Shown here piece by piece: positions 1 through 34,073 of a DNA stretch of 64,000 nucleotides. Source of the DNA: a virus. A program made the position numbers and the translations under genes. Below the pieces are notes generated by a model, which made no database searches, was not told the DNA's origin, and was given only the letters and a program-made list of their open reading frames with translations. The stretch lies in UHGV virus genome UHGV-0122002; one strand, given 5' to 3'. Positions within the stretch are counted from its first letter, which is position 1. Each line of letters starts with the position of its first letter.

Positions 1-417
1 TGGCCATCAGCCACACCTCCAACGGGGTGGCTGAAATGCAATGGTGCAGCATTTTCTTCTGAAAAGTACCCAAATCTGGCAAAGGTTTACCCAACGTTAA
101 AATTACCTGATTTACGCGGTGAGTTTATCCGTGGTTGGGATGATGGGCGAGGTGTGGATGCGGGAAGGGTCATCTTAAGCATACAGGGGTGGTTAACAGG
201 AAGTCATTATCATAATATTCGGTCATGGGACGCGTGGGATAACACGGTATTGGTGCCAAATGACAGAGGGGGGGATAGTCTGTTGTCGACAGATAACGCC
301 GTCCAAGAAGGAGCGATTAATGGTAAATTTACCAGTCAATACAGAACGGAGTTATCTGGGGGGAATGAAACCCGCCCACGTAACATTGCCTTCAATTATA
401 TTGTGAGAGCAGCATAA
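1..417 (+). CDS. Tail fibre protein, C-terminal variable cassette (partial; 5' end upstream of window)
   Basis: Frame open from base 1 to TAA at 415-417; ends ETRPRNIAFNYIVRAA, the conserved C-terminus of P1/Mu-type fibres; tfa gene follows with ATG overlapping the stop. Confidence 0.8.
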   Translation, partial: WPSATPPTGWLKCNGAAFSSEKYPNLAKVYPTLKLPDLRGEFIRGWDDGRGVDAGRVILSIQGWLTGSHYHNIRSWDAWDNTVLVPNDRGGDSLLSTDNAVQEGAINGKFTSQYRTELSGGNETRPRNIAFNYIVRAA

Positions 418-1028
418 TGGATAATGCGATATTAAATAGCGAACTTATAGCCATACAGGCAGGAAACATTATCGTTTATAACTATGATGGTGGTAATCGG
501 GAATATATTTCTGCATCAACTGAATATCTTGCTGTTGGCGTTGGTATTCCGGCACATTCTTGTTTGGATGCTCCAGGCTCACATAAAGCAGGTTATGCGA
601 TTCTCCGTTCAGAGGATTTAAGTTCATGGGAGTATGTGCCAGATCATCGTGGCGAAACTGTCTATAGCATTGACACTGGGAATCCCGAAGAAATCACGGT
701 GTTGGGTGACTATCCGGAAAATACAACCACTATCGCCCCGCTAACACCATACGACAAATGGGATGGAGAGAAATGGGTGGTTGATACTGAGGCTCAACAT
801 AGTGCAGCTGTAGAGGCAGCAGAAACAAAACGTCAGTCATTGATTGATACTGCGATGGATTCCATTAGTCTGATTCAGTTGAAATTACGGGCTGGACGGA
901 AGTTGACGCAGGCAGAAACCACGCAGCTTAACTCCGTGCTAGATTATATAGACGAGCTGAACGCGATGGATTTAACCACGGCACCAGATCTCAACTGGCC
1001 TGAAAAACAACTTTCTACAGCCAGTTGA
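417..1028 (+). CDS. Tail fibre assembly chaperone (Tfa/U family)
   Basis: 203 aa; C-terminal LDYIDELNAMDLTTAPDLNWPEKQ resembles the conserved Tfa C-terminal domain; start overlaps fibre stop (TAATG). Confidence 0.8.
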   Translation: MDNAILNSELIAIQAGNIIVYNYDGGNREYISASTEYLAVGVGIPAHSCLDAPGSHKAGYAILRSEDLSSWEYVPDHRGETVYSIDTGNPEEITVLGDYPENTTTIAPLTPYDKWDGEKWVVDTEAQHSAAVEAAETKRQSLIDTAMDSISLIQLKLRAGRKLTQAETTQLNSVLDYIDELNAMDLTTAPDLNWPEKQLSTAS

Positions 1029-1033
1029 TATAA

Positions 1034-1531
1034 TTAATCCGCCCTCACAATATAATTAAATGCAATATTACGAGGGCGGGTTTCTAAGCCAGCAGTACCT
1101 AAATTAGCTACGGACTGTTTATATGTTTTAAAAGTTCCATAATTAGGGGCTGGCAATCCTGCATCGCTTGTGTTCCCCCATCTGATAACTCCCGTATTAC
1201 CACTAGTAGCCCATGCCTCGTCAAAGTAGAAATTAATTGAGCTGTCAGTTGCTACGGTTGATTTTGACGGTAATCCGTGAGCATGATCCTCCGTTGCATA
1301 TCCTTGCTCGCTTAAAATAGAGCGACCTGGATCAATCCCGCGCCCGTCATCCCAGCCACGAATGAACTCACCACGTAAATCAGGCAATTTATTTGTCGGG
1401 TAAGCCTTTGCCAGTTCCGGGTATTCTTCAGCAGAAAAAGCCGCACCGTTGCATTTCAGCCAGCCTGTTGGCGGAGTGGCTGAAGGCCACGGAACAGGGA
1501 CACCAACAGGTAATGCAGAGCCTTCTCCCAA
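1034..1531 (-). CDS. Alternative tail-fibre C-terminal cassette (Sv'-like), promoterless and currently in the unexpressed orientation
   Basis: No ATG start (first codon is TTG inside the crossover site); shares the N-proximal block WPSATPPTGWLKCNGAAF and C-terminal RPRNIAFNYIVRA with the + strand cassette but has a divergent middle. Confidence 0.7.
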   Translation of the reverse strand: MGEGSALPVGVPVPWPSATPPTGWLKCNGAAFSAEEYPELAKAYPTNKLPDLRGEFIRGWDDGRGIDPGRSILSEQGYATEDHAHGLPSKSTVATDSSINFYFDEAWATSGNTGVIRWGNTSDAGLPAPNYGTFKTYKQSVANLGTAGLETRPRNIAFNYIVRAD

Positions 1532-1548
1532 ACCAACGTTTTAGTCTT
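1523..1548. promoter_or_regulatory. Putative cix/gix/hix-type invertase crossover site (right end of invertible segment)
   Basis: TTCTCCCAAACC AA CGTTTTAGTCTT: 26 bp with an AAACC half-site like hix/gix sites, at the junction of the Sv' cassette, about 55 bp upstream of cin. Left partner must lie upstream of the window. Confidence 0.45.
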
Positions 1549-1602
1549 AATCCCTACCTATACCAACGATGTATTTTTAACTAAACAAAGAGGTTGTTTT
1601 TC

Positions 1603-2175
1603 ATGCAAATTGGCTACATTCGTGTGTCAACAAATGACCAAAACACAGATTTACAAAGAAATGCACTGAACTGCGCAGGATGTGAACTGATTTTTGAAGA
1701 TAAAATAAGCGGAACAAAGTCAGCCAGACCAGGCTTGAAAAAGCTGCTCAGAACGTTATCAGAAGGAGATACGCTGGTTGTCTGGAAGCTGGATAGGCTT
1801 GGCAGAAGTATGAAACACCTTATCACGCTTATAGAGGAGTTGCGGGAAAAAGGTGTTAATTTCCGTAGTCTGACAGACAGTATTGACACATCAACACCCA
1901 TGGGGCGTTTCTTTTTTCACGTCATGGGGGCTTTAGCAGAAATGGAACGTGAATTAATTGTTGAGAGAACACTGGCCGGACTGGCAGCTGCACGCGAACA
2001 GGGACGCATTGGCGGACGTCGCCCGAAGTTGACAAAAGAACAACATGAGCAAATAGCGAGGTTGATCGAAAATGGCTACAGCAGGAAACAGTTGGCAATT
2101 ATTTACGATATCGGTGTATCGACGATTTATCGTTATCATCCTGTAGAGAAGCGCCAAACTCAATCTGAGCTGTAA
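1603..2175 (+). CDS. cin: Serine DNA invertase, Cin/Gin/Hin/Pin family
   Basis: MQIGYIRVSTNDQNTDLQRNAL... with catalytic Ser in the RVST motif and a C-terminal helix-turn-helix; RBS AAAGAGG upstream; the track start at 1594 is TTG, the ATG is at 1603. Confidence 0.9.
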   Translation: MQIGYIRVSTNDQNTDLQRNALNCAGCELIFEDKISGTKSARPGLKKLLRTLSEGDTLVVWKLDRLGRSMKHLITLIEELREKGVNFRSLTDSIDTSTPMGRFFFHVMGALAEMERELIVERTLAGLAAAREQGRIGGRRPKLTKEQHEQIARLIENGYSRKQLAIIYDIGVSTIYRYHPVEKRQTQSEL

Positions 2176-2610
2176 TTCTAATGCCGCGTCGGTGTAATTT
2201 ATCTTGATAGAATAGGTACATTTATCGCGCGGCACATCAATTCGATGTATCTAGCGCCTGCTGACCGCTAATGAAAACTGTCCTCGAAATGTTGTCCCTA
2301 GCCCGAGACTAGGGTATCACCTCTGGAAAGCATACGCAGAACCTTTTTTAACCCAGGGTGCCCAGCCTTTTTGCTGCTCGCCTTATTCGCAAAAATTAGC
2401 TCACATCCTGCGCTTTCAAGTGCTTTTCACTGCATAGCTGTGTTTTGTTCATTTGTCTATATGCGTACATAGCCTATTAGCATATTTTCTGCCCACTATC
2501 GTTATTTATTGCATGCTACTGGTTTTAATTAACAAAACCAGTGTGTGTGGAAATCACAAAGTGCATACCGTTCTCAGATGTTGTTCAACTTACTGTTGTA
2601 TAGGTAAAAA

Positions 2611-2874
2611 ATGACATTTTATGTACATATCGTGATGTTATCCCTTCTTGGTGGGGTGTATTCGTATTTGAGTGGGCTATGTGAAAACCGTTACGAGTCT
2701 TCATGCAAGAAATTGCTGGCCGAATGTATTTCCGCCGTACTTGCTGGCTTTATTGGCATGTATCTCGCGGAATATAAGGATATGAATGAAAGCCTTCAGA
2801 GCTGCATGGTTCTTATTTTCAGCGCCAATAGCAGGCTTATTATTGAAGGTTCCAAAAGTCGGTTGAATAGGTAA
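2611..2874 (+). CDS. Small hydrophobic protein, function unknown
   Basis: 87-aa ORF with ATG start and hydrophobic N-terminal half; weak RBS. Confidence 0.35.
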   Translation: MTFYVHIVMLSLLGGVYSYLSGLCENRYESSCKKLLAECISAVLAGFIGMYLAEYKDMNESLQSCMVLIFSANSRLIIEGSKSRLNR

Positions 2875-2948
2875 GTCTCTTATGCAACATAACCGGTTGA
2901 GAAGTTACTTTGCATACCATTACCTCCTGACAACGTAGGAGGGAACTT

Positions 2949-3278
2949 GTGCTTGACACACAGGAATTAGCTCCAGTTGCTATTGCGCTCCTGCTTTCAG
3001 TAATTGGTGGGATAGGCACGTTCCTGATGGATGTCCGAGACGGTCGCCAGTCTGGCAATTTGTTGGGATTGGTTACGGAGATCTTTGTTGCAGTGACAGC
3101 TGGCGCGGTGGCGTACCTATTGGGGCAACACGAGGGCTGGGAGTTATCAATTACGTACTTAATGGTAACGATAGCCAGCAATAACGGTCATGAGGTGATT
3201 TCAGGGATGAAACGAGTGAATATCGATAGCATTCTGAATGTTCTTACAAGTTTGGTGAAAAAGGGAGGCGGGAAATGA
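2949..3278 (+). CDS. Putative holin (P1 LydA-like by position and topology)
   Basis: 109 aa, GTG start 6 nt after AGGAGG; two or three predicted transmembrane helices; first gene of the operon leading into hdf-darA. Confidence 0.5.
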   Translation: MLDTQELAPVAIALLLSVIGGIGTFLMDVRDGRQSGNLLGLVTEIFVAVTAGAVAYLLGQHEGWELSITYLMVTIASNNGHEVISGMKRVNIDSILNVLTSLVKKGGGK

Positions 3279-3718
3279 TTGGCTGGGGTGTATGCGTTCT
3301 TGCGTTAGCCTTAGCCGATCGCTATTTGCTAAAACGCAAGGACATCACGCATTTAGAACTTGGTGATGTGGAAATTAAACCGGGTTTCATCCGGGTGCCG
3401 TTCAAATACCGGTCTAAATTCCCGTTTTTGCGCGGCGCAACGGTCAGATATTGGATCCGCGATGTTCAGAAGCCGACGACAGTGATTGAAGGCGAACAAC
3501 GTTGTTTGACGTCGGCTGAACAGGGCGAAAACAGTGAATGGTTGTACATACCCACTGAATATATGGGTAAAGGAGAGCGACTGTGGCATTTCAACGTCAT
3601 GGTTACGCATGGCGACTCGTTCATTAACCCGTTGTATCGGATTTTCCCTGTTACTCAGCAAATCCGCAGAAGTTACGTAATAAATCTCGCACAGGATGTG
3701 TCAGATGACGAAAAATAA
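3275..3718 (+). CDS. Lysis regulator candidate (P1 LydB-like by position)
   Basis: 147 aa, start overlaps previous stop; RBS GGGAGG; no catalytic motifs recognised. Confidence 0.4.
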   Translation: MIGWGVCVLALALADRYLLKRKDITHLELGDVEIKPGFIRVPFKYRSKFPFLRGATVRYWIRDVQKPTTVIEGEQRCLTSAEQGENSEWLYIPTEYMGKGERLWHFNVMVTHGDSFINPLYRIFPVTQQIRRSYVINLAQDVSDDEK

Positions 3719-4307
3719 GTATGCAACGGTCGATTTTGACCAGGTTAATGAAAAGGGGCTGAAATCCCTTATCGCGGCGATCAATAAAACCGGTGTTACG
3801 GTAATTGAGGTTGACTCCAGCAACCGCGCAACAACGAAAGATGGCGTTAAAGTTAAAACCGCAAAGCTGGTTCTTAACGACGGACAAATTCTTGCCATAC
3901 AGGTAAACGATACTGGCGATATATCGTCTGTGAGGCTGAATGGAAAAGCTATTCCTAACGCTCAATCGCCGGATATCAAGACGCTTGGTACCGTCATGGG
4001 GCAAGCGGCCCGCAAAAACTCCGCAAAATTCCAGAAATCACTGATCGCCAAAGCGAAGCGTGTTGCCAATCCGGTAGACAAGAAACCGGCAGTAAAATCC
4101 AACTTTCAGCGCCTGCAAGAGGCAAAACAGCGGAATGCTCAGGTGGTTGCCGCTTATAAATCAGCGCAGAACTCGGTGTCTTTCAATCAACAGCAGATCA
4201 CTGATTTGCGGGCGAAGCTGGATAAGGAGACAGGCCGACTCAATAACGAAAAGGCCCGAAATGGCGAACTCAAACGCCGTCTTAAGCAACTGAAAGCAGG
4301 AAATTAA
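3705..4307 (+). CDS. hdf: Hdf-like protein (shares a KNSAKFQ segment with DarA)
   Basis: 200 aa from the ATG at 3705 (RBS AGGA 8 nt upstream); contains GQAARKNSAKFQKSLIAKAK resembling the DarA segment LAEKNSAKFQRAQKKKK; immediately upstream of darA. Confidence 0.6.
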   Translation: MTKNKYATVDFDQVNEKGLKSLIAAINKTGVTVIEVDSSNRATTKDGVKVKTAKLVLNDGQILAIQVNDTGDISSVRLNGKAIPNAQSPDIKTLGTVMGQAARKNSAKFQKSLIAKAKRVANPVDKKPAVKSNFQRLQEAKQRNAQVVAAYKSAQNSVSFNQQQITDLRAKLDKETGRLNNEKARNGELKRRLKQLKAGN

Positions 4308-4308
4308 C

Positions 4309-6228
4309 ATGGAACAGTTCAATATCAATAAAGGGGTGACGATCAAGCCTGGGCTTGACGTGCTTCCCCCGCCAGTGACTGATGATGAATATCGCGCATT
4401 AATGGCCGGTGAGGACCGCTATCTGATGACGGAATCCAACACCCTGGAGGAAATCGAGGCTACGTTCTTCTATGACACGCCGATCCACTGGTGTGCTACG
4501 GATTTACTGGAGGCGATTAGTTCTACTCGTTTGCAGTTACACCGGACCATGCAGGCATTTGTCCGGGCATTGAACCAGAAGCTGAATGGTACCGGAATCT
4601 CTGCGGGGAGTGATAAAACGGGGGATGTGGCCCAGAGCGGCGCGCGCGCGATCGGCGGTGCTGAAATTGGCCGGGCACGTAACGTTAACGGGCTGCCGGT
4701 CCTGCCAGCCATTATTCCGCTCAGTGATGGTCAGACTATCAGCATTCTGTTTCATAGCCCGACAGCGGAAAACCGGATCACCAATAGCGATACGCTGATT
4801 GCTTTCCAGTTCTTACTGAATAAAAAAGACGTTACTCATACCGTTGCTCCGATGAGTGGACGTGATATGACGCTGGCGCAGGTCACCATGAAACTTGCCA
4901 ACCTTGCAGAGAAAAACTCGGCAAAATTCCAGCGTGCGCAGAAGAAGAAAAAAGCCCTGGTTGATGAAATAACCCAACTACAGGCTGACAGTGACCAGAA
5001 AGAGGATGCCATGAGCGACCTCGCGGATCAGGTGACAGCGGTAGAAGGGCAGAAGGTAGATCTGGAGCAGAAAATTAACGCTGTTGCATCGGAAGCGGAT
5101 TCTCTTTATGAAGAGAATGAGCGTTTGCAGACGGAGATTGATCAGCTCAATCGCACAGGTGGGCGCGATACCATTGATCCAGCGGGGATGACTGGTGGGC
5201 ACTCGCGCGCGCTGACGGATCGCCTTGCCAGTATCAAAAATCGTATGCATATGAACGGGGAAGTGACGCTCAGTAATGGAGCATCAATGAAGCAATTCAT
5301 TGAGGACGGCGAAGGGTATATCCAGTTAACCGATTCGGATGGCAGCGTGTACATGATCAAGGCTAAATCCATACAGGGTGTGGACATGGCAGATGCGATC
5401 GGCAAGCTGTTTAAAGCCTATAAAGCGGGTAATGTATCGGAATATCTGGTCCAACCAGAAGAACATAAACCGGAAAACGTCGAACCTGAACCAGCGGAGG
5501 ATACCGGTAGCTCTTCGCCTGAACCAGAAGTCTCTGTAGGTGCATATCGATATGCCTTGCAAATGCGTCCGGCGGCCCCTGGCGCAATACCTGAAGGTAA
5601 CAAAGCAATTCTGCCGCGCCCTGATGAAGGTGACCCGTATTATGAATATGCACGCTACGGCATTGCTACTTACGATACCCCGCTTTCTGATCAGCAAATG
5701 AGTGAGTACGACCTGAAGTTATTGCCTCGCGAGGATTCTTTCGACTTCCTGGCGAAGACACTTACTAATGGTCCGTTTGGCAAATATGCACAAAAAGCTC
5801 TGGATCTGGCCACCAGCTCACCAGACGAGTTCCGCGTAATGCTGAAAACTCAGTTTCAAAAAACTTTCCCCAATATTGCGTTTCCGGGGGGCGCTGGCAC
5901 CGAGAAAATGGTGCAGAGCATGATCAATGCATTGCAGGCCGAAGTCGGTGAGATTACTCAGCCAGAACCTGCCCCGGCACAGCCTGATGAAACGGTTAGC
6001 GAAGCAGATGCAGAGGCTAATAAAGCCATTGAATATCTCAATAACGTGATGGATATGCAAAGCACTGACATGGCGGAGATCCGTAACGCCCGGGGTAATG
6101 TCCGGGAAGCGATTGCAGCCCTTCAGGCTGCCGGGCGTTTTGAGGAAAACGAAGAGCTGGTTAATGGCGCTGCTCGCCACCTGGCTGATCTGCTGGTAGC
6201 AATCCAGAAAGCGGGGGTAGCGGCATGA
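4309..6228 (+). CDS. darA: DarA-like capsid internal anti-restriction protein
   Basis: 639 aa (the size of P1 DarA), in the hdf-darA-ddrA-ddrB order, coiled-coil centre; assignment by size and synteny recalled from memory. Confidence 0.7.
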   Translation: MEQFNINKGVTIKPGLDVLPPPVTDDEYRALMAGEDRYLMTESNTLEEIEATFFYDTPIHWCATDLLEAISSTRLQLHRTMQAFVRALNQKLNGTGISAGSDKTGDVAQSGARAIGGAEIGRARNVNGLPVLPAIIPLSDGQTISILFHSPTAENRITNSDTLIAFQFLLNKKDVTHTVAPMSGRDMTLAQVTMKLANLAEKNSAKFQRAQKKKKALVDEITQLQADSDQKEDAMSDLADQVTAVEGQKVDLEQKINAVASEADSLYEENERLQTEIDQLNRTGGRDTIDPAGMTGGHSRALTDRLASIKNRMHMNGEVTLSNGASMKQFIEDGEGYIQLTDSDGSVYMIKAKSIQGVDMADAIGKLFKAYKAGNVSEYLVQPEEHKPENVEPEPAEDTGSSSPEPEVSVGAYRYALQMRPAAPGAIPEGNKAILPRPDEGDPYYEYARYGIATYDTPLSDQQMSEYDLKLLPREDSFDFLAKTLTNGPFGKYAQKALDLATSSPDEFRVMLKTQFQKTFPNIAFPGGAGTEKMVQSMINALQAEVGEITQPEPAPAQPDETVSEADAEANKAIEYLNNVMDMQSTDMAEIRNARGNVREAIAALQAAGRFEENEELVNGAARHLADLLVAIQKAGVAA

Positions 6229-6590
6229 CACTATCAGCTATTGAGTTAATGGATCTCAGCGATAAGTTGGATGCTCTGATGTCCAAAGCGGCTATCGCGA
6301 GTGGTATGGAGTTGCTGGATATCAGCGATGAAATTGACCAGATCATGCAACAGATGGGGTACGGCGCGTCCGGCGGTGGTAGTGGCGAGGAAAAACAACC
6401 TTCGGAACATGATGGTGTGCCAAAACTGGTTGCTGATTTCCTGGCTGATAAATTCGTCGATCAGAGCACTGATGCATTTATCGGTACGTTACAGGACTTG
6501 AGTCAATATGTTGGCACATACATCGACCTGGACCAGGTTAAACAGCACACGGCGGCATGGATAGCCGCCAACATTAAAGAGGCAGCGTGA
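6225..6590 (+). CDS. DdrA-like small protein of the dar operon
   Basis: 121 aa, start overlaps darA stop; by position only. Confidence 0.5.
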   Translation: MTLSAIELMDLSDKLDALMSKAAIASGMELLDISDEIDQIMQQMGYGASGGGSGEEKQPSEHDGVPKLVADFLADKFVDQSTDAFIGTLQDLSQYVGTYIDLDQVKQHTAAWIAANIKEAA

Positions 6591-7937
6591 CATCCTCCAC
6601 GCCCCGAAGGGCGTGGATTCCTGCTACGTTCAGGCTGTCGCCTGAATCATTTCGGTGGGTTCCTGCTTCAACGGGCGGCCTGACTGCACCATCCCTCCAC
6701 AGGCAAGAACGGCGTGCCCCGCCGCTAAAATGTTACGAGCGCCGTTTACATCGGCGTTCGCTGTATATCCACATACCTGGCATCTGAATTTACTTTGTGA
6801 CAGGCGATTTTCTTTCGCTGTATGACCACAGCACGCGCAACGCTGGCTTGTGTACGCTGGCGGAACAGCAAGCACCTGACCGCCACGCCAGAGCTGCTTG
6901 TACTCAAGCTGGCGGCGCATTTCATACCAGCCCTGATCCAGTATCGAACGGTTTAAACCTGATTTTGCCCGGACATTGCGCCCCGGCTGGCTGACCGTAC
7001 CCGCTGCTGACTTTGACATGTTGCTGACCTTCAAATCCTCAATGACTATCATTGCGTGGTTTTTGCTGACGGTCGTTGTGACTTTGTGAAGGTAGTCCCT
7101 GCGGATATTTGCGATACGGGAATGCAGTCGCTGTATTTTGCGTTTCTGCTTCTGCCAGTTGTTGCTGAATTTGACCTTGCGGCTTAACTGTCGCTGAAGT
7201 CTCGCCAGCTTCTTCTGGTTTTTCTGAAAACTGTTTACAGGTTCAAAGACTGTGCCATCTGACAGCGTGGCGAGTTTAGCCACGCCAGCATCCAGTCCGA
7301 CCATTGATGCTGAAGGGTGAACCGGAGTTGATACTTCATTTTCAGTCTGAATACTGATGTACCACTTACCGCAGGACTGGCTGACAGTGACATTTTTCAC
7401 AACACCCGTGACCTGACGGCTATTCCGGTAGCGCATCCAGCCAAGTTTCGGCAGAAAAATACGGCTGTTTTCCTGATCGAGCTTAACGCCCTGCGGGTAG
7501 CGGAATGCATCATTCTGTCCCCGCTTTTTGAATCGGGGAAAAGCAGCCCGCTTCTGGAAGAAGTTTTTGTAAGCCCGCTCAAGGTCTTTCAGTGACTGTT
7601 GCAATGGCTGTGAGGGAGAATCTTTAAGCCATTCGGTTTCAGTGTCTTTTTTCCACTCAACCAACCAGGAAGCCATTTTCGTGTAAGGGATGTATTTTTT
7701 ACCGGCCTCATGATTCTCATTCTGAAGCGCCAGAGCACGGTTGAAAACGAAACGACAAGCTCCGGCAAAGCGCCTCATTTGACGCTCCTGTTGACCATCT
7801 GGTTTTAACCGGAATTTGAATGACACCTGTTGTTTCATGTCACTATTTTAAGCAAAAATAGCCGGGAGGAAAACTGTGCCTTATATCCCCACTATGAGGA
7901 GCGTAGGGGGCGGCACATTGGATAAGGCGTAACAGGG
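6591..7937 (-). mobile_element. IS200/IS605-family insertion sequence carrying only tnpB (IS1341-like), boundaries approximate
   Basis: About 1.35 kb separating ddrA from ddrB; contains intact tnpB; perfect hairpin TCCACGCCC-CGAA-GGGCGTGGA at 6596-6617 at the tnpB-3' end. Confidence 0.65.
6630..7838 (-). CDS. tnpB: TnpB (OrfB) RNA-guided endonuclease-type transposase accessory protein
   Basis: 402 aa; N-terminal OrfB helix-turn-helix region, RuvC-like motifs, C-terminal zinc finger CACCGH...[18 protein letters not shown]. Confidence 0.9.
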
Positions 7938-13478: not shown

Positions 13479-14036
13479 ATGAAGGGAAAAACAGCCGCAG
13501 GAGGCGGTGCAATTTGCGCTATCGCGGTGATGATTACCATCGTGATGGGTAATGGCAATGTGCGAACCAACCAGGCAGGGCTTGAGCTGATTGGTAACGC
13601 TGAAGGTTGCCGACGTGATCCATACATGTGCCCGGCGGGGGTATGGACTGACGGGATCGGTAATACACACGGGGTAACGCCGGGTGTGCGAAAAACCGAC
13701 CAGCAAATCGCCGCTGATTGGGAAAAGAATATCCTGATCGCTGAACGCTGTATTAATCAGCACTTCCGGGGCAAAGACATGCCCGATAATGCCTTCAGTG
13801 CAATGACAAGCGCGGCATTCAATATGGGATGTAATAGCTTACGGACCTACTACAGCAAAGCGCGAGGCATGCGAGTAGAAACGTCCATCCACAAGTGGGC
13901 GCAGAAAGGAGAATGGGTGAATATGTGTAACCATCTCCCTGATTTCGTGAACAGTAACGGCGTGCCCCTGCGAGGTTTAAAGATTCGCCGTGAAAAAGAA
14001 CGCCAGCTTTGCCTGACGGGACTGGTCAATGAATAA
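13479..14036 (+). CDS. lyz: SAR (signal-anchor-release) endolysin, lysozyme family
   Basis: 185 aa from MKGKTAAGGGAICAIAVMITIVMG (Gly/Ala-rich N-terminal membrane segment) followed by lysozyme-like domain; track start at 13380 is probably too far upstream. Confidence 0.85.
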   Translation: MKGKTAAGGGAICAIAVMITIVMGNGNVRTNQAGLELIGNAEGCRRDPYMCPAGVWTDGIGNTHGVTPGVRKTDQQIAADWEKNILIAERCINQHFRGKDMPDNAFSAMTSAAFNMGCNSLRTYYSKARGMRVETSIHKWAQKGEWVNMCNHLPDFVNSNGVPLRGLKIRREKERQLCLTGLVNE

Positions 14037-14283
14037 ACTCCGGCAGCTCCGCCGACTTTCGACAATGAAGTTATCGTTGGCGGCGATAGTTTTCGACTCG
14101 ATTTTCATGGCGGTATATGTGCTCAATGAGACGTGGCCACTGGAACCGCTATTGTATGCCGGGCTTCGGCTGTGCCTGACATTTTTGAGCATGGCTGCAA
14201 GATTGATGCAGCAGAAAGAAACCGCTTCAGATTGTCCACGCCGCGCGGTGCGCAAATTTATGGCACGCAGGCGAAGGCGATAA
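14029..14283 (+). CDS. Small membrane protein overlapping lyz 3' end (possible lysis accessory)
   Basis: 84 aa, one hydrophobic helix, Arg-rich C-terminus; ATG overlaps lyz stop region. Confidence 0.3.
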   Translation: MNKLRQLRRLSTMKLSLAAIVFDSIFMAVYVLNETWPLEPLLYAGLRLCLTFLSMAARLMQQKETASDCPRRAVRKFMARRRRR

Positions 14284-14294
14284 TAGTTAACGAG

Positions 14295-14325
14295 AACCCC
14301 GGCAGCCGCCGGGGTTATTTTTGGT
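14295..14325. terminator. Terminator hairpin between convergent lysis and head operons
   Basis: AACCCCGGC-AGCC-GCCGGGGTT followed by ATTTTT. Confidence 0.6.
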
Positions 14326-14327
14326 GG

Positions 14328-17058
<2,731 letters not shown>

Positions 17059-26650: not shown

Positions 26651-27682
26651 CTAATCGCCATCTTCCAGCAGGCGCACCATTGCCCCCGTTTCACTATCCA
26701 GGTTACGAATGTAGTTCATGACAATATTTACGTTGGTCCAGCCACCAGCTTGCATGATCTCCGGTATTGAAACTCCGGCGCGGGCCATATCTCGCGCGGC
26801 TCCGACACGGGCACTGTGTCCAGACCAGGCCAGGTATCTCTGCCCAGAGTCATCCTTAGCGCCGTAAATCAATCGATGAGTTGCTTCAAAAATCCCTTCC
26901 AGAGCGCGAGTTGATAGCTGGCTGGTGGCAGATGGCGCGGCAACACCATTTTTTCTGACACGGCAAAACAGGTAGTTATTCGGATCATCAGCCACACCAG
27001 AGACAGAAATCCATCGCTCGACCAGTTTAGTTACCCCCAGGCTAAGTGCCTTCTCTACACCTGCGGTGCTAACCAGTGTTTTCGTTCTGCCAATATGGAT
27101 TAACATTCTCCCACCGTCAGTACGTGAGATATCTTTAACCCTGATCCTGGCAATTTCGGCTATACGTAACAGGGTGTTATAAGCAATCCCCAGAAATGCC
27201 AGATTCCGTATATCCTGGCAGCGATCGCTATTTTCCATGAGTGAACGAACCTGGTCGAAATCAGTGCGTTCGAACGCCAATGCCTGTTTTGCACGTTCAC
27301 CGGCATCAACGTTTTCTTTTCGAATCCGCCGCATGACCAGTGAAACAGCATTGCTGTCACTTGGTCGTGGCAGCCCGGACCGACGATGAAGCATGTTTAG
27401 CTGGCCCAAATGTTGCTGGATAGTTTTTACTGCCAGACCGCGCGCCTGAAGATATAGAAGATAATCGCGAACATCTTCAGGTTCTGCGGGAAACCACTTC
27501 CGGTTATTCAACTTGCACCATGCCGCCCACGACCGGCAAACGGACAGAAGCATTTTCCAGGTATGCTCAGAAAACGCCTGGCGATCCCTGAACATGTCCA
27601 TCAGGTTCTTGCGAACCTCATCACTCGTTGCATCGACCGGTAATGCAGGCAAATTTTGGTGTACGGTCAGTAAATTGGACAT
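26651..27682 (-). CDS. cre: Cre tyrosine site-specific recombinase
   Basis: 343 aa beginning MSNLLTVHQNLPALPVDATSDEVRKNLMDMFRDRQAFSEHTWKMLLSVCR and ending MVRLLEDGD; matches Cre as remembered; loxP 420 bp upstream. Confidence 0.97.
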   Translation of the reverse strand: MSNLLTVHQNLPALPVDATSDEVRKNLMDMFRDRQAFSEHTWKMLLSVCRSWAAWCKLNNRKWFPAEPEDVRDYLLYLQARGLAVKTIQQHLGQLNMLHRRSGLPRPSDSNAVSLVMRRIRKENVDAGERAKQALAFERTDFDQVRSLMENSDRCQDIRNLAFLGIAYNTLLRIAEIARIRVKDISRTDGGRMLIHIGRTKTLVSTAGVEKALSLGVTKLVERWISVSGVADDPNNYLFCRVRKNGVAAPSATSQLSTRALEGIFEATHRLIYGAKDDSGQRYLAWSGHSARVGAARDMARAGVSIPEIMQAGGWTNVNIVMNYIRNLDSETGAMVRLLEDGD

Positions 27683-28515: not shown

Positions 28516-28725
28516 ATGGCTTTCATTCCACCAACCATCGACGACGTTAGACATTGCTCTAACGCTTTATCTGTAGACCCCGCCGAAACCGACGCTGCCC
28601 GCGCCATTGCTGAACACTACTCAAAGATATCCAATCAGGAGTACCGCATCACCCAAGACGACCTGGATGATCTCACTGACACAATCGAATATCTCATGGC
28701 CACTAACCAGCCAGACTCACAATAA
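28516..28725 (+). CDS. coi: Coi-like C1 inactivator
   Basis: 69 aa ORF with RBS GAGG, directly upstream of c1. Confidence 0.75.
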   Translation: MAFIPPTIDDVRHCSNALSVDPAETDAARAIAEHYSKISNQEYRITQDDLDDLTDTIEYLMATNQPDSQ

Positions 28726-28835: not shown

Positions 28836-29687
28836 ATGATAAATTATGTCTACGGCGAACAACTGTACCAGGAGTTCGTCAGCTTCAGGGATCTCTTTCT
28901 AAAAAAAGCTGTTGCACGCGCCCAACACGTTGATGCCGCCAGCGACGGTCGTCCTGTTCGCCCGGTTGTCGTTCTGCCGTTCAAAGAAACGGACAGCATT
29001 CAGGCTGAAATTGATAAATGGACTTTAATGGCGCGGGAACTGGAACAGTATCCAGACCTCAATATCCCAAAGACTATTTTATATCCAGTGCCTAACATCC
29101 TTCGCGGTGTGCGTAAGGTTACAACTTATCAGACAGAAGCTGTGAACAGCGTCAACATGACCGCTGGCCGCATTATTCATCTGATTGATAAGGACATTCG
29201 CATCCAAAAAAGCGCGGGGATCAATGAGCACAGTGCGAAATACATAGAGAACCTGGAAGCAACAAAAGAGCTAATGAAGCAGTACCCGGAGGATGAAAAA
29301 TTCCGTATGCGCGTACACGGCTTTAGCGAAACAATGCTGCGCGTCCACTACATTTCCAGTAGCCCTAACTACAATGATGGTAAATCAGTTAGTTACCATG
29401 TGCCACTGTGTGGCGTGTTTATCTGCGATGAAACTCTCCGTGATGGAATTATCATCAACGGTGAATTCGAAAAAGCAAAATTTAGCCTTTATGACTCCAT
29501 AGAACCGATCATCTGCGACCGCTGGCCGCAAGCAAAAATATATCGCCTGGCAGATATTGAAAATGTAAAAAAACAAATTGCCATCACTCGCGAAGAGAAA
29601 AAGGTTAAGTCAGCCGCATCAGTTACGCGCAGCCGTAAAACCAAGAAGGGGCAGCCAGTAAACGACAACCCCGAAAGCGCGCAATAA
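28836..29687 (+). CDS. c1: C1 repressor of lysis
   Basis: 283 aa starting MINYVYGEQLYQEF; downstream of coi and the operator cluster next to loxP. Confidence 0.9.
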   Translation: MINYVYGEQLYQEFVSFRDLFLKKAVARAQHVDAASDGRPVRPVVVLPFKETDSIQAEIDKWTLMARELEQYPDLNIPKTILYPVPNILRGVRKVTTYQTEAVNSVNMTAGRIIHLIDKDIRIQKSAGINEHSAKYIENLEATKELMKQYPEDEKFRMRVHGFSETMLRVHYISSSPNYNDGKSVSYHVPLCGVFICDETLRDGIIINGEFEKAKFSLYDSIEPIICDRWPQAKIYRLADIENVKKQIAITREEKKVKSAASVTRSRKTKKGQPVNDNPESAQ

Positions 29688-29689
29688 AT

Positions 29690-29715
29690 TATGCCCGGCA
29701 TCAACCGGGCATTCT
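29690..29715. terminator. Hairpin between convergent c1 and antirepressor genes
   Basis: GCCCGG-CATCAA-CCGGGC followed by a T-rich stretch on + strand. Confidence 0.35.
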
Positions 29716-29719
29716 TCTA

Positions 29720-30838
29720 TTATTCAGCCGCCACCGGTTTTAACAAGCCAGCATCGAGCAGTTTACGCGTCAACCACTGCTGGCCTTTACCCGTTAATTG
29801 AGGCGTCAACCGTATCTGGTAGCCATCTTCATCATCCAGCACCACTTCTTTCACCGTGAAATACCCCGCGTTGATGTACTGCTGGAACGGCACATTTTTA
29901 CGTCCACCGGACGCTATCAGGATGCCGTTCTCCCGTAACCAGACAAACAGCGCGTTTTGTTTAAGTCCAACAACCTTTGCAAAATTCCCAATCAGGATCC
30001 CTTTAGCTACTGATACCCGGTCGGCAAAATCGACTTTAGGAGCGGCGGCCACCAGCTGCTGATTTAGCTGGTGGGCTTTCTGTTCCAGAAGTTGCTTTTG
30101 TTCAGCCAGTTCGGCAGCCAGGCGTAGGGCTTCAGGAAGCGTCTGGGGGATTGCGATCGGTTGCTGTTCTTTTTGTCGGAAGTAGCTGTCTTCCAGTTTT
30201 TCAAAGAATGCCCATGCCTGATCGGTTTCGAGCATTTTAGCGTGGCGGGCTGCGCCGCGTTCTGTCCAGAGGGTGAGTGAGCGAACATTGCGAGCAATTT
30301 TTACAGAGTAGTTTAAAGCTACTCTGTGCTTCAACTCGCGCAATGATTCTCCTTCAACTTTGAAAAAGTGCTTCCCTTCAACAAAGCGTACTTTGTTCTC
30401 ATGATGATTTTGGCGAATACGGATTGTTTCTGTCCCATACCCTCTAGCAAGAGTCTCGGTTGTCACTACACGCACTCCCTGCCATTCCAGAACGGGAATT
30501 TCATCAGACTGATTCTGAACAACCACCAGCTCCGATTCTTGAACTGAAGGTGCATGAATTTTTTCTGATTTAACGTTAGTTGCTTTCATTCTGTGTGCCT
30601 CCTTGCGTGCTTCGGCTGCGGCGGTTGCGTAATTCAGATGACCCTGTTCGAGCAGGTATTCGCGGATATCAGACAACAGGATACGGTGAACCGCGTTCTT
30701 GTCCTTTCTCCGGTAAAGTTGTTTGGTGATCATGAAGTAGTTGGCAATAACGCCTGGTATATCCCTGGTACTGATACAGGCAGTGTGCTGTTCAATTGCC
30801 TCGATCATCTCTTCACGGGTGACTAATGACGTTCTCAT
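29720..30838 (-). CDS. Antirepressor (ORF6N/Bro-N-type central domain plus KilAC/ANT C-terminal domain)
   Basis: 372 aa; central VLEWQGVRVVTTETLARGYG...FFKVEGESL; C-terminal VAKGILIGNFAKVVGLKQNALFVWLRENGIL...YFTVKEV; start overlaps upstream small ORF stop. Confidence 0.7.
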   Translation of the reverse strand: MRTSLVTREEMIEAIEQHTACISTRDIPGVIANYFMITKQLYRRKDKNAVHRILLSDIREYLLEQGHLNYATAAAEARKEAHRMKATNVKSEKIHAPSVQESELVVVQNQSDEIPVLEWQGVRVVTTETLARGYGTETIRIRQNHHENKVRFVEGKHFFKVEGESLRELKHRVALNYSVKIARNVRSLTLWTERGAARHAKMLETDQAWAFFEKLEDSYFRQKEQQPIAIPQTLPEALRLAAELAEQKQLLEQKAHQLNQQLVAAAPKVDFADRVSVAKGILIGNFAKVVGLKQNALFVWLRENGILIASGGRKNVPFQQYINAGYFTVKEVVLDDEDGYQIRLTPQLTGKGQQWLTRKLLDAGLLKPVAAE

Positions 30839-31056
30839 AGTCCCTCCTGAGCAGAAGCGTTAACAGGGAGGCACCAGTAACTGAGAGAATTGCGTGAATC
30901 AGTGGAAAAACGGGCAGAGAAAATACATGGGGCGTCAGGAAGCTGAGAGCGGGCCTCATCTTCTGTCGGTGCAATAACGAAGTGATAGTGACGTTTTTGG
31001 CAGGAGTAAAAGCGCCAGATAAATTCAGGATGAGTTGGGGTAGGGATAGTAGCCAT
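30835..31056 (-). CDS. Small ORF upstream of and translationally coupled to the antirepressor (Icd-like position)
   Basis: 73 aa from internal Met MATIPTPTHPEFIWRFYSC...; stop overlaps ant start; longer frame up to 31284 probably non-coding leader. Confidence 0.35.
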   Translation of the reverse strand: MATIPTPTHPEFIWRFYSCQKRHYHFVIAPTEDEARSQLPDAPCIFSARFSTDSRNSLSYWCLPVNASAQEGL

Positions 31057-31375
31057 ATTGGCAGCCTCCTTAGACGTTGGTATGTAACCACCGCAGAAGA
31101 GACCAATCTTGCTGGCGGTGGACTGTACGGAGTTGGCCTTACTGGCGTCCAAGGTAACCAGCCTACCCGAAGGTAGCCCCATACAGCCCACCATTGTAGA
31201 GGTGTGCGTGTACGCCGATACAAAAAAAAGACGCGAGCGGCGTCTGTATCGCCTTAGACTTAAGCGGGAGGCCAATCCCGGCACCCGTTTTAATGAGGTG
31301 CCTGATAAGCATAAACCGAAAATGCCTCAAGGCGCAAGAGGTCAGGCTCAATGTAACATCGGTAGTTAAAAAACA

Positions 31376-31392
31376 CAATTTATTAGAGCAAA
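31376..31392 (-). promoter_or_regulatory. C1 operator-like site upstream of the antirepressor module
   Basis: CAATTTATTAGAGCAAA; 15 of 17 to operator consensus. Confidence 0.5.
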
Positions 31393-31395
31393 TAT

Positions 31396-32880
31396 TCATT
31401 CATTAAGCCATGCCAGAGCTTCATCAACCTGCGCTTCGTCTTCGACGCTAAGCACTTCATCCTGGGGAACATAATCCGCCAGCATAGCGAAACAATATGT
31501 ATCCCAATGGTCTGGTGAGTGCAGGTTGAGTTTTTTCTTCATATCCTCCTTACTCATCACCTTCCATTGACCTGCGGAGTTAATCCCTACAGGGATTTTC
31601 GACGCTTCCTCAATAGTTTCATTACCCTTATCCAGTCTCATACGACCAGATTTTACGGCCTCTGCGGCTTGAACGTTGGCATAAGCACGTTTATCAAAGT
31701 ACAGGCTCTTATCTTCACGGCTATGCATCTTTTTACCCCAGCGTATACGCTGTACGGTAATACCATAATACTCGTACATCAGATCCGCCGTTGCTTTACC
31801 CAGGCCATCGCCGTCTATCGCTATGGTGATATTTGGGAATCGCTCAGGATTACATTCTGCGAAAATTTTGGCGGCAAGCTGCGTTTCTGTAACGTCTGTG
31901 TATTCCAGCATTCGATAGTTGATTACACGGCGTTTATTTCGCTGGCCGGACACCATCATGATATTGATAACGGACTTATCCCGTCCCGTACCACCAGCAA
32001 CGTCCACACATGCAAGCCAGCCCCATCCTTTGGCAATCTTGACTTTCCGCCGCGTTGCACGTTCAACCTCATCACGTCCAAGAAGGAAGCCATCCTGTGA
32101 TTTAGGGAATAGGCCGCGTACCTTAATCATGTACATAGGGTTATCACGCCCGCCGTACTCCGCCAGCTTCATTTTGATAAATGCTGGCGTTACCAACGGT
32201 GATTCCTCACTGTTAAGCGTGATCGCCGTATAAACGCCATCAGGGTTACCAGGACGCTTGGCCAGTTTATGGTGTGTATCGTAGAAATAGCCGCTTGGGC
32301 GTGTAGGCTGTGACAGCAATAAGATGCGGTTATCCTGTCCGGTAAGAGCACCGGTGATGATACCGAAAGCTCTATCACTGACACCGGAGGCTTCATCGAT
32401 AATATACAGAAGATGATCTGCGTGTTCACCGGCGAGAGCTTCTTCACTTCCCAGACGAAAGCCCTTCGGTACTACAGTCCATACACCTTTACCAGTAACC
32501 TCATAGAAAGCGGTTTCTGTCAGAACAAAATAATCAGCAAGCCATGGAAAACGGCTGGTGGCAGTAGCCCAGTTTATCTTGATGTACTTGAATATACCGG
32601 TCATTACCTGCTGAATTTTGTTCGCAACGATAATGGCGCGGGCACCGGGATACATGATTATGAACAACATGATCATGATAGAAGTCATGTCTGATTTCCC
32701 GGTACCGTGACCAGACGAAACAGATGTCTTGCTACCCTGTTCCTGCACAGACTCAATAATCAGATCCTGCTGCCAGGTAGGTGTTTTGCCGAACAAAACA
32801 TCAGCGGCAGCAATCCAGTCATAACGATATAGCGCCACCAGCTCGCGCCAACGTGGATCCGTTACGCAACTTCTGGCCAT
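31396..32880 (-). CDS. pacB: Terminase large subunit PacB-like
   Basis: 494 aa, directly downstream of pacA which carries the pac site; Walker A-like SGHGTGKS and Walker B-like [11 protein letters not shown] are my reading. Confidence 0.85.
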
Positions 32881-34073
32881 TAATCATCATCCCCGTATAG
32901 CTTGCGGGTAACTTCTTCGTCTTCCTCCTCGTCTTCGTCCAGGTCTTGTTCCAGCCATGGGTCGTTTGATACACCTTCAGTATCAACATCTCCATAACCG
33001 CCTGTATCAACGATATCGGCGATTTCTTCCCTACGCTGCTCAATCCACAATGCGGCATCGGCGCGGCGGTTGGCGGCCCGTTCTCGCGCAACTTTGTCCA
33101 GATCTTCAAGAGAAGGGCCACCGACGGCTGTTTGCCTTTCCTCATCATCGGTATTGGTCTTAGGAGCACGCAGATCGGCTTTGATTTGCTCCAGCATCAG
33201 GGGCGGCACTTTCCCGCCATGCGCCTCAATGAATTCAGCTGCTTCCAGCACTGACCAGTTATTTTCACGCTTTCGTTCGTATGCCAGCTTAACAATGCCA
33301 GCTTGCCCCATAGACAAAGCGTGCTTTTCCGCCTCCCGGCTTTCTTTTCGATAGTTATTCCGGATGCTGTAAATGGTGTTGATCAGGCTGCTTATCTGCG
33401 CGGAACAGCTGTTTAGCATGCTCGCGATACGGTATTCAGGCGGAGTACCTTCATCATCGTCTTTTTGCTGATCGCGCATTTCCTGCACCAGGCGAATACA
33501 CGTATCCCTGGCGTTCTCCAGCATAAGGAGATGAGAGAGAGACTTTTCCAGAAGAGTGGTTTCCAGAACATCAGCCCCGGACCGACGCAACATAGCGCGC
33601 GCGGCCTTCCGCGCTTCAACGTTATCTATCAGGTAATCGCCAGCTTCGAATTCAAAGCGTTCACCATCATCATCCAGGGTGTCGCGTTCCAGGCGATCAC
33701 GTAAGGTCCGGTGGGCGCGGGTGATCACGTCATGATCATCAGAACGATCATTTATGCGCTTATTCTGGCGCTTCGCGTTCTCGACTGCGGCACTGACAAC
33801 AGCATTAACTCTTTGTTTTTCAGCCATTTCAGCCACAACGTGATCACCTGCACGTTGATCATTAGCGTGATCAATGATCATGCTTTTTAGTGGTTTTCTG
33901 ACAGGCTTATTTGGCTTACGGCTGTCCGCTGTTCCGGTGTCTTCTTTGAATGCACGGAGATAACGACGTGCGGTGTTTGGGTTGAGATTAAACTCGGCGG
34001 CATATTGTGCGATGGTGTAACCACCATCTCGCGCCAGGCGAGCAAAATTCTTCTTGTGATCGTCCCAGGTCAC
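32880..34073 (-). CDS. pacA: Terminase small/recognition subunit PacA-like (contains pac site)
   Basis: 397 aa, GTG start; pac hexamer clusters lie inside the coding sequence; acidic C-terminus. Confidence 0.8.
33722..33880. other. pac packaging site (clustered TGATCA hexamers with Dam GATC sites)
   Basis: TGATCA at 33722, 33733 (plus CGATCA at 33745) and at 33841, 33856, 33868, 33875; two clusters ~95 bp apart. Confidence 0.75.

What the first reader, a model, noticed from the sequence alone, without database searches (positions are those of the whole stretch)
29720..31395. Antirepressor module wedged between pacB and c1, with its own C1 operator
A 372-aa ORF6N/KilAC antirepressor is preceded by a translationally coupled 73-aa ORF, a ~230-nt leader and a C1 operator-like site (31376-31392). 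The layout mimics a P1 immI unit (c4 RNA, icd, ant) but sits beside immC and convergent with c1. As I recall the P1 map, pacB and c1 are adjacent and immI lies elsewhere, so this may be an extra or relocated anti-immunity module.
Basis: partly seen in the sequence, partly recalled or inferred. Interest (0 to 1): 0.5.

Follow-up and report, generated by a model that had tools for sequence, protein, structure and literature searches.

The report
Second antirepressor switch in P1-like plasmid
This P1-like phage-plasmid carries, between its packaging gene pacB and its repressor gene c1, a complete second copy of the RNA-gated antirepressor switch (immI) that laboratory P1 has only once; the copy has its own RNA specificity, is common in natural E. 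coli plasmids and is already annotated, so it is real and tidy but only moderately new.

Summary
Window 29688-31395 replaces the 24-bp pacB-c1 spacer of phage P1 with a 1.7-kb unit on the minus strand. The unit runs: C1 operator (15 of 17 consensus positions), tandem promoters, an IsrK-type leader carrying a1/b1 boxes and a terminator, a c4 antisense RNA (Rfam 75.9 bits), a2/b2 boxes with b2 over the icd ribosome site, icd (73 aa, 80% identical to P1 Icd), and a 372-aa Ant1 homologue with a conserved nested Ant2 start. It is colinear with, and homologous to, P1 immI.

It is an extra copy, not a relocated one. The same plasmid (100% match to NZ_LR130557.1) keeps the canonical immI beside kilA-repL. 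The two c4 RNAs have different recognition boxes and should not cross-react, a contrast at least as large as that between P1 and P7. This held in 9 of 9 genomes checked. Across 17 leaders, every change in the c4 boxes is matched in the target boxes, with one degenerate b1.

The module is common: 249 of about 700 P1-like elements in complete E. coli genomes. It is annotated by PGAP and in RCS47, and gets one sentence in Venturini 2019. Antirepressor activity is inferred, not shown.

The parts
31376..31392 (-). C1 operator (TTTGCTCTAATAAATTG). It lies 4 nt after the pacB stop and overlaps the -35 of the upstream promoter, the same geometry as P1 Oc4/Op51.
   Evidence: 15 of 17 to the consensus; 15 sites in the window against 0.36 expected. 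The core is invariant in all six module copies aligned and sits in register with P1 Oc4.
31350..31378 (-). Upstream promoter candidate (TTGTGT-17-TACATT), counterpart of the C1-controlled P1 promoter P2c4/P51a.
   Evidence: Positional homology with the annotated P1 promoter. The hexamers are weak (7 of 12) and the consensus scan missed it. Inferred.
31302..31340 (-). Downstream promoter candidate (counterpart of P1 P1c4/P51b and of the isrK promoter). The likely -10 is TATGCT at 31308-31313 if the transcript starts at 31301.
   Evidence: Alignment with P1. The Rfam isrK model starts at 31301. Exact hexamers are uncertain; inferred.
31224..31301 (-). IsrK-type leader RNA. It has two hairpins; a1 (TTGGCCT, 31269-31275) sits in the loop of the second, b1 (GTCTAAGG, 31252-31259) is single-stranded, and an intrinsic terminator (31229-31245) with a U-run follows.
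   Evidence: Rfam isrK RF01394 scores 60.8 bits (gathering score 50). c4-a1b1 RF03163 overlaps at 20.5 bits. The terminator was found. The a1/b1 boxes are complementary to the c4 boxes.
31111..31198 (-). c4 antisense RNA. By homology the mature form is about 79 nt, 31114-31192. Recognition boxes: b' CCTTGGAC (31147-31154, hairpin-2 loop) and a' AGGCCAA (31133-31139, single-stranded junction).
   Evidence: Rfam C4 RF01695 scores 75.9 bits (gathering score 45). The minimum-free-energy fold has the same architecture as P1 and P7 c4, with both boxes unpaired.
31065..31106 (-). c4 target region in the icd leader: a2 TTGGTCT (31100-31106) and b2 GTCTAAGG (31068-31075). b2 overlaps the icd Shine-Dalgarno AAGGAGG (31065-31071).
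   Evidence: 7-bp and 8-bp antiparallel complementarity to a' and b', each including one G-U pair. The position matches P1 a2/b2.
30835..31056 (-). icd homologue (73 aa), translationally coupled to ant1 through an ATGA overlap.
   Evidence: NCBIfam NF033153, E 2.6e-13. 80% identical to P1 Icd. PGAP annotates it as such.
29720..30838 (-). ant1 homologue (372 aa): P1 Ant1-like N-terminus, ORF6N middle domain, KilAC/ANT C-terminus.
   Evidence: Pfam. BLASTP against P1 Ant1 gives 56% identity overall (E 3e-130), with the last ~145 aa nearly identical.
29720..30589 (-). Nested ant2 homologue (289 aa). It starts in frame at Met84, preceded by AAGGAGG at 30598-30604.
   Evidence: Met84 aligns with the annotated P1 ant2 start at codon 84. 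The ribosome site was read from the sequence.
29691..29712 (.). GC-rich hairpin between the convergent c1 and ant genes; a candidate bidirectional terminator.
   Evidence: The terminator scan finds it on both strands. The T-runs are weak.
29688..31395 (-). The whole 1708-bp unit that replaces the 24-bp pacB-c1 spacer of P1. Homology to P1 breaks exactly at the two stop codons.

Best explanation
The segment is a second, complete immI-type immunity/anti-immunity operon, a paralogue of P1 c4-icd-ant1/ant2. It sits between pacB and c1 in addition to the canonical immI carried by the same phage-plasmid.

Proposed mechanism, by homology with P1 immI:
1. Transcription starts from two tandem promoters just downstream of pacB. 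The upstream promoter is shut off when C1 binds the overlapping operator.
2. The transcript carries a leader with decoy boxes a1/b1 and a leaky intrinsic terminator (IsrK-type). The c4 RNA follows and is processed out.
3. c4 pairs through its b' loop and a' junction with b2 (over the icd ribosome site) and a2. This blocks icd translation and, through translational coupling (and Rho-dependent polarity in P1), blocks ant1/ant2 as well.
4. When cognate c4 is missing or outnumbered, Icd and Ant1/Ant2 are made. This happens on fresh infection, or on superinfection of a lysogen whose c4 does not match. Ant then inactivates C1 and favours lytic growth.

The module's c4 boxes (AGGCCAA / CCTTGGAC) differ from those of the plasmid's canonical immI (GTTCCAA / CCTTTTGC). 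The two switches should therefore be orthogonal. The element would have two independent locks: as a prophage it is immune to two ant types, and as an incoming phage it escapes a resident that lacks either matching c4.

Shown here: the anatomy, the homology, the box complementarity and covariation, the co-occurrence with canonical immI, and the prevalence. Inferred: promoter use, c4 processing, Ant binding to C1, and orthogonality in vivo.
For: - The unit is colinear and homologous with P1 immI, from operator to ant1 (P1 annotation).
- Rfam finds C4 at 75.9 bits and isrK at 60.8 bits.
- The operator matches 15 of 17; the window has 15 such sites against 0.36 expected.
- Icd is 80% identical to P1 Icd. 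Ant is 56% identical to P1 Ant1, with a near-identical C-terminal ~145 aa and a conserved Met84/Ant2 start.
- c4 folds with both boxes unpaired. Cognate duplexes are -21 to -22.5 kcal/mol. The cross-pairing between the two modules of this plasmid is -10 to -12. The P1/P7 pair is, as recalled from the literature, heteroimmune, and gives -9 to -14 against -20 cognate.
- Across 17 leaders there are 7 b' alleles and 5 a' alleles. Each is matched by its own a1, a2, b1 and b2, with one degenerate b1.
- The same plasmid keeps the canonical immI beside kilA-repL.
- In 9 of 9 genomes carrying both modules, the two specificities differ.
- The module is intact in hundreds of plasmids: 268 PLSDB records and 249 complete E. 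coli genomes at 80% coverage or more.
Against: - There is no experimental evidence for this module.
- The promoter hexamers are weak and the consensus scan did not detect them.
- The middle domain of Ant (ORF6N) differs from that of P1 Ant1, and which part of Ant contacts C1 is not known to me.
- Decayed copies exist, so the module is dispensable. Examples are a frameshift in the ST2747 copy, an internal stop and loss of the leader in pPKF8, and IS insertions.
- For four of the nine genomes, the module's c4 allele was inferred from 99% or higher identity to the window rather than read directly.
Confidence: 0.8

Rival explanations
1. The module is immI relocated: the phage has a single immI that moved next to immC.
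For: Within the 64-kb window only one C4 RNA is found, because the canonical immI position lies outside the window.
Against: The plasmid that matches the window at 100% has a second C4/isrK-icd-ant unit beside kilA-repL, at record positions 13640-15640. So do RCS47, JL22, 673R5, pZ1323CEC0005_1-2 and four further plasmids.
Confidence: 0.02
2. The module is a selectively neutral or decaying duplicate picked up by recombination between P1-like plasmids. It is transcriptionally silent or without effect on immunity.
For: Some copies are broken. About 44% of P1-like elements do without it. The promoters look weak.
Against: All ORFs, both ribosome sites, the nested start, the operator core and the four target boxes are intact. 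The boxes covary with the c4 loops across alleles, which would not be maintained without selection on the RNA-RNA interaction. Copies are 99% or more identical in over 100 plasmids from different hosts and continents.
Confidence: 0.08
3. The module is functional, but its Ant does not act on C1. It targets the repressor of another prophage, as Gifsy AnrP does, or acts as a DNA-binding regulator through ORF6N (some records name it 'Roi DNA-binding protein'). It would then serve inter-prophage competition rather than P1 anti-immunity.
For: The ORF6N middle domain is absent from P1 Ant1. The leader belongs to the IsrK family known from a lambdoid Salmonella prophage. Annotators of 673R5 and JL22 called the gene roi.
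Against: The N-terminal 84 aa and the C-terminal ~145 aa are shared with P1 Ant1/Ant2. The plasmid's own canonical Ant also carries ORF6N. The operon is placed under a C1 operator, which ties it to the C1 circuit.
Confidence: 0.1

Closest known systems
immI operon of phages P1 and P7 (Oc4/Op51, P51a/b, c4 RNA, icd, ant1/ant2)
   Same: The order and spacing of all elements match, and the DNA is homologous along the whole length. A C1 operator overlaps the upstream promoter. c4 has the same fold. a1/b1 and a2/b2 boxes are present, with b2 on the icd ribosome site. Icd is 73 aa. icd and ant overlap by ATGA. The nested ant2 start is at codon 84.
   Different: The location is between pacB and c1 instead of between sim and kilA-repL. 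It is present in addition to the canonical copy. The c4 recognition boxes are new (AGGCCAA / CCTTGGAC). The leader is of the IsrK type, with a strong intrinsic terminator upstream of c4. The Ant middle domain is replaced by ORF6N.
IsrK-orf45-AnrP module of Salmonella Gifsy-1 (PMC4825925)
   Same: The leader matches the Rfam isrK model over its full length (60.8 bits). Both have a promoter-proximal short RNA ending at a leaky terminator, a processed ~80-nt RNA downstream that is complementary to it (STnc1160 in Gifsy-1), and a translationally coupled small ORF followed by an antirepressor.
   Different: In Gifsy-1 the small ORF (45 aa) overlaps the processed RNA and there is no Icd. The published model has short IsrK activating translation in trans and does not invoke a c4-type repressor. 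The Gifsy-1 module has no C1 operator. Whether the short leader RNA here acts as an activator or a c4 decoy is untested.
'ant' gene between pacB and c1 in RCS47, pTZ20_1P and other P1-like plasmids
   Same: It is the same insertion at the same junction: RCS47 covers 92% of the query at 92% identity. It is noted in one sentence in PMC6906374.
   Different: RCS47 carries different c4 boxes (GTCTCAA / CCTTTGAC). The published notes describe only 'two short orfs and an antirepressor'. They do not describe the c4 RNA, the operator or the specificity.
immI of Salmonella phage P22 (ant controlled by sar antisense RNA, Mnt and Arc)
   Same: It is a functional analogue: a second immunity region whose antirepressor is held down partly by a small antisense RNA (from memory, not tested here).
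   Different: The proteins and RNA are unrelated, and the control logic differs.

Membership tests
P1-type immI operon | C1 operator overlapping the upstream promoter | tested here: met
   31376-31392 matches 15 of 17. It aligns in register with P1 Oc4, and its last 3 nt form the start of the -35.
P1-type immI operon | c4 antisense RNA gene between promoter and icd | tested here: met
   Rfam RF01695 scores 75.9 bits against a gathering score of 45, over the full-length model.
P1-type immI operon | c4 boxes a'/b' complementary to a2/b2, with b2 covering the icd ribosome site, and to upstream a1/b1 | tested here: met
   7-bp and 8-bp matches at all four sites. b2 overlaps AAGGAGG. The boxes covary across 17 leaders.
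P1-type immI operon | icd (73 aa) translationally coupled to ant1, with nested ant2 | tested here: met
   ATGA overlap. Icd is 80% identical to P1 Icd. Met84 with AAGGAGG aligns with the P1 ant2 start.
P1-type immI operon | Map position between sim and kilA-repL | tested here: not met
   The unit lies between pacB and c1. The canonical position is occupied by another copy.
P1-type immI operon | Ant1/Ant2 bind and inactivate C1; c4 represses icd/ant in trans | not testable with these tools
   Needs genetics or biochemistry.
Rfam isrK (RF01394) | Score at or above the gathering score, with two 5' hairpins and a terminator | tested here: met
   60.8 bits against 50, model positions 1-77.
Rfam isrK (RF01394) | Short RNA acts in trans to activate translation of the downstream antirepressor | not testable with these tools
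   Known only for Gifsy-1 (PMC4825925).
Phage antirepressors with KilAC/ANT domain (PF03374) and ORF6N (PF10543) | Domain matches above the Pfam cut-offs | tested here: met
   ANT 107.9 bits (cut-off 25.3); ORF6N 70.1 bits (cut-off 27.8).
Icd-like cell division inhibitors (NF033153) | Model match above the cut-off | tested here: met
   49.8 bits against 25.

The most novel reading that the evidence does not exclude
Natural P1-like phage-plasmids may run a combinatorial RNA 'barcode' immunity system. The a' and b' boxes of c4 reassort independently: at least 5 a' and 7 b' alleles occur in 17 leaders. About a third of the elements carry two c4-icd-ant switches whose specificities are kept different. 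On this reading, the pair of barcodes, rather than C1, decides which P1-like elements can coexist with, exclude or induce one another. The IsrK-type short leader RNA would act as a decoy for c4. That would unify the Salmonella IsrK/AnrP system with P1 immI.
Probability: 0.4. Interest if true: 0.55.

Novelty: new member of a known kind. Interest (0 to 1): 0.35.

Why it matters
P1 immunity has been worked out almost entirely on laboratory P1 and P7, which carry a single immI. If many wild P1-like phage-plasmids carry two orthogonal c4-gated antirepressor switches, two things follow. Superinfection immunity, heteroimmunity groups and cross-induction among these elements would be set by pairs of RNA specificities that can be read from sequence. 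That gives testable predictions about which plasmids can co-reside or displace one another. These elements often carry resistance genes, so the predictions have practical interest. The finding also links the Salmonella IsrK sRNA family to the c4 leader.

Tried and rejected
- Relocation hypothesis: rejected, because the canonical immI is present in the same plasmid.
- Independent chromosomal source: the one near-full-length chromosomal hit (ST2747) is a degraded, integrated P1-like element with pacA/pacB attached. It is not a different prophage family.
- Consensus promoter scan: it did not recover the promoters. Their placement rests on homology with P1 and on the start of the isrK model.
- Formal pooled covariation with the count of structure pairs: not run. 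The two leader scaffolds are out of register by one column at b2 in the MAFFT alignment. I used explicit box tables and a cross-matrix instead.
- The PGAP 'ash family protein' pseudo-CDS lying on c4: its translation matches no NCBIfam model. I treat it as a protein call on an RNA gene.
- Literature searches for a described 'second immI' found only the one-sentence note in PMC6906374.
- Insertion or deletion: I could not decide whether the module was inserted or P1 lost it. The 24-bp P1 spacer shares only a CCGGCAT heptamer with the module's left end.

Full report
**What the window is.**
The window is a P1-like phage-plasmid. Around the finding lie cre (26651-27682, -), coi (28516-28725, +), c1 (28836-29687, +), pacB (31396-32880, -) and pacA (32880-34073, -). 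The 1.8-kb query spanning the finding is 100% identical to E. coli MS14385 plasmid 3, NZ_LR130557.1. Window position 1 corresponds to record position 45554.

**Checking the observation.**
- The 372-aa ORF (29720-30838, -) has Pfam ORF6N and ANT/KilAC domains.
- The 73-aa ORF (30835-31056, -) has an AAGGAGG ribosome site, and its TGA stop overlaps the ant ATG.
- That small ORF matches the NCBIfam Icd-like model. It is 80% identical to P1 Icd, which is also 73 aa.
- The proposed operator (31376-31392) reads TTTGCTCTAATAAATTG on the minus strand, 15 of 17 against the C1 operator consensus.
- The window has 15 sites with 3 or fewer mismatches, against 0.36 expected from shuffles.
- In P1 the pacB and c1 stop codons are 24 bp apart, and immI lies 45 kb away.
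- Homology between the window and P1 breaks exactly at the two stop codons. A 1708-bp unit (29688-31395) therefore replaces the 24-bp spacer.

**What the leader contains.**
- Rfam finds a full-length C4 antisense RNA at 31111-31198 (-), 75.9 bits against a gathering score of 45.
- Immediately upstream is a full-length isrK match at 31224-31301 (-), 60.8 bits against 50.
- The isrK match comprises two hairpins, a single-stranded stretch and an intrinsic terminator (31229-31245 plus a U-run).
- The Rfam family 'c4-a1b1' overlaps the same hairpins below threshold, at 20.5 bits. In P1 that family hits the equivalent place.
- The whole stretch from operator to the start of ant aligns colinearly with P1 immI. 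This covers Oc4/Op51, P2c4 and P1c4 promoters, a1, b1, c4, a2, b2, icd and ant1.

**The RNA logic is intact.**
- P1 c4 recognises its targets through b' (hairpin-2 loop) and a' (single-stranded junction).
- The window's c4 folds into the same architecture, with b' = CCTTGGAC and a' = AGGCCAA unpaired.
- Downstream, a2 (TTGGTCT, 31100-31106) and b2 (GTCTAAGG, 31068-31075) are complementary to a' and b'. b2 overlaps the icd Shine-Dalgarno sequence.
- Upstream, a1 (TTGGCCT, in the loop of the second leader hairpin) and b1 (GTCTAAGG) repeat the same boxes.
- I compared 17 leaders: six pacB-c1 modules and eleven canonical immI copies. They carry 7 b' and 5 a' alleles.
- In every case the a1, a2, b1 and b2 boxes changed in step with the loops. 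The one exception is a degenerate b1 in 673R5.
- This covariation is the strongest sequence-level evidence that the RNA-RNA interaction is under selection.

**The protein is an Ant1/Ant2 homologue.**
- Against P1 Ant1 it is 56% identical overall (E 3e-130).
- The first 84 residues are about 55% identical, the middle is unrelated, and the last ~145 residues are nearly identical.
- Met84 is preceded by AAGGAGG at 30598-30604. It aligns with the annotated in-frame start of P1 ant2 at codon 84.
- P1 Ant1 has only the ANT domain. The ORF6N middle domain is a swap, and it is also present in this plasmid's canonical 469-aa Ant.

**Extra, not relocated.**
- The canonical immI position lies outside the window. 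In NZ_LR130557.1 it is occupied by an isrK-type leader, C4 (76.7 bits), icd and a 469-aa ant, followed by kilA and repL.
- Its c4 boxes are GTTCCAA / CCTTTTGC.
- Cognate box-target duplexes are -21 to -22.5 kcal/mol. The two cross combinations within this plasmid are -10 to -12.
- For calibration, the P1/P7 pair, which I recall from the literature as heteroimmune (not tested here), gives -9 to -14 against -20 cognate.
- RCS47, JL22, 673R5 and pZ1323CEC0005_1-2 also carry both modules with different boxes.
- Four further plasmids have a window-type module (99% or more identical) and keep canonical immI. Their boxes are CTGCTAA with TCATTCGT, TCACAATC, TCGTAAGT and TCACAATC.
- In total, 9 of 9 genomes have two different specificities. 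The same module allele is paired with at least four different canonical alleles, so the two loci reassort independently.
- For those four plasmids the module's c4 allele was inferred from overall identity, not read directly.

**Prevalence and prior knowledge.**
- The full module is found in 268 PLSDB plasmids and in 249 of 5426 complete E. coli genomes, at 80% or more of the 1.8-kb query.
- 700 genomes hold pacB/c1 junction sequence, and 308 of them have the empty P1-type junction.
- Roughly a third of P1-like elements therefore carry the module.
- PGAP annotates the two proteins correctly, and RCS47 annotates 'ant'.
- Venturini et al. [quoted passage not shown] RCS47)' (PMC6906374).
- In the searchable library I found no description of the c4 RNA, the operator or the specificity of this second unit.

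**Mechanism proposed.**
I apply the P1 model. The c4 translational block of icd with polarity on ant, and Ant binding C1, are recalled from the P1 literature and not tested here.
1. C1 at the operator shuts the upstream promoter, and the downstream promoter keeps c4 supplied.
2. c4 masks the icd ribosome site, and the coupled ant1/ant2 stay off.
3. Without matching c4, Icd and Ant are made and Ant inactivates C1.
4. Two orthogonal switches give the prophage immunity against two ant types. They also give the infecting phage a way past residents that lack either c4.

The IsrK precedent adds a possible layer. In Gifsy-1 a short leader RNA, ending at the leaky terminator, activates translation of the downstream small ORF and antirepressor. 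A processed ~80-nt RNA complementary to it (STnc1160) lies downstream (PMC4825925). Here the short leader carries a1/b1 and could titrate c4. This is inference.

One further consequence of the position is also inferred. pacA, pacB and the module are on the same strand, with only 3 nt between the pacB stop and the operator. Late pac transcripts would therefore run into the leader instead of running antisense into c1 as in P1.

**Weaknesses.**
- No experiment supports activity of this module.
- The promoter hexamers are weak and the consensus scan missed them.
- The C1-contacting part of Ant is unknown to me.
- Broken copies exist, so the module is dispensable.
- I could not tell whether the module was inserted or lost.

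**Verdict.**
The unit is an extra, complete, apparently functional immI paralogue with its own c4 specificity. It is a new member of a well-known kind. It is common in nature and already annotated, so interest is moderate (0.35). The more novel reading is a two-barcode RNA immunity system among wild P1-like plasmids, with IsrK-type leaders as c4 decoys. The evidence does not exclude it, and it can be tested directly.

Noticed in passing
window 31081-31194 (-): PGAP annotates an 'ash family protein' pseudo-CDS lying on the c4 RNA gene (31111-31198). The same happens at the canonical immI (L005 15286-15405). The translations match no NCBIfam model. This looks like a protein call on an RNA gene.
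   Followed up: partly
window 31224-31314 (-): Rfam isrK (RF01394) and c4-a1b1 (RF03163, clan CL00128) overlap on the same leader hairpins. In P1 the equivalent leader hits c4-a1b1, while here and in RCS47 it hits isrK. The two families seem to model variants of one element, the a1/b1 leader of c4 operons, yet isrK is not in the clan.
   Followed up: partly
window 1-7618: A cargo island sits in the P1 backbone next to ssb. It contains AVAST type 4 Avs4 (which runs off the window start), two hypothetical genes and two adjacent tyrosine recombinase/integrase genes.
   Followed up: no
L005 13640-15640 (NZ_LR130557.1, outside the window): The canonical immI of this plasmid does not have the P1/P7-type leader. 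It has an isrK-type leader nearly identical to the pacB-c1 modules of other plasmids; for example, its boxes equal those of the pZ1323CEC0005_1-2 module. Its Ant is 469 aa and carries both the P1-type middle region and ORF6N. Leaders and Ant domains are evidently exchanged between the two loci.
   Followed up: partly
L010 (pPKF8-120kb), L006 (ST2747 chromosome), H38 and H63: Decayed or disrupted copies of the module exist. In pPKF8, ant has an internal stop, and the leader, c4, operator and pacAB are replaced. In a chromosomally integrated, degraded P1-like element, ant is frameshifted. Two plasmids have IS3-family insertions in the module.
   Followed up: partly
window, 15 sites (e.g. 13329, 26141, 26617, 28178, 28261, 28725, 34683, 46248, 48340, 48389, 52013, 62436/62447): A map of C1 operator-like sites (3 or fewer mismatches) across the window, including an overlapping inverted pair at 62436-62463. 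Most probably correspond to known P1 operators. They were not matched to those one by one.
   Followed up: no
window 59552-61778 (-): Three tRNA genes (Rfam tRNA, 65-75 bits), consistent with the P1 tRNA cluster.
   Followed up: no
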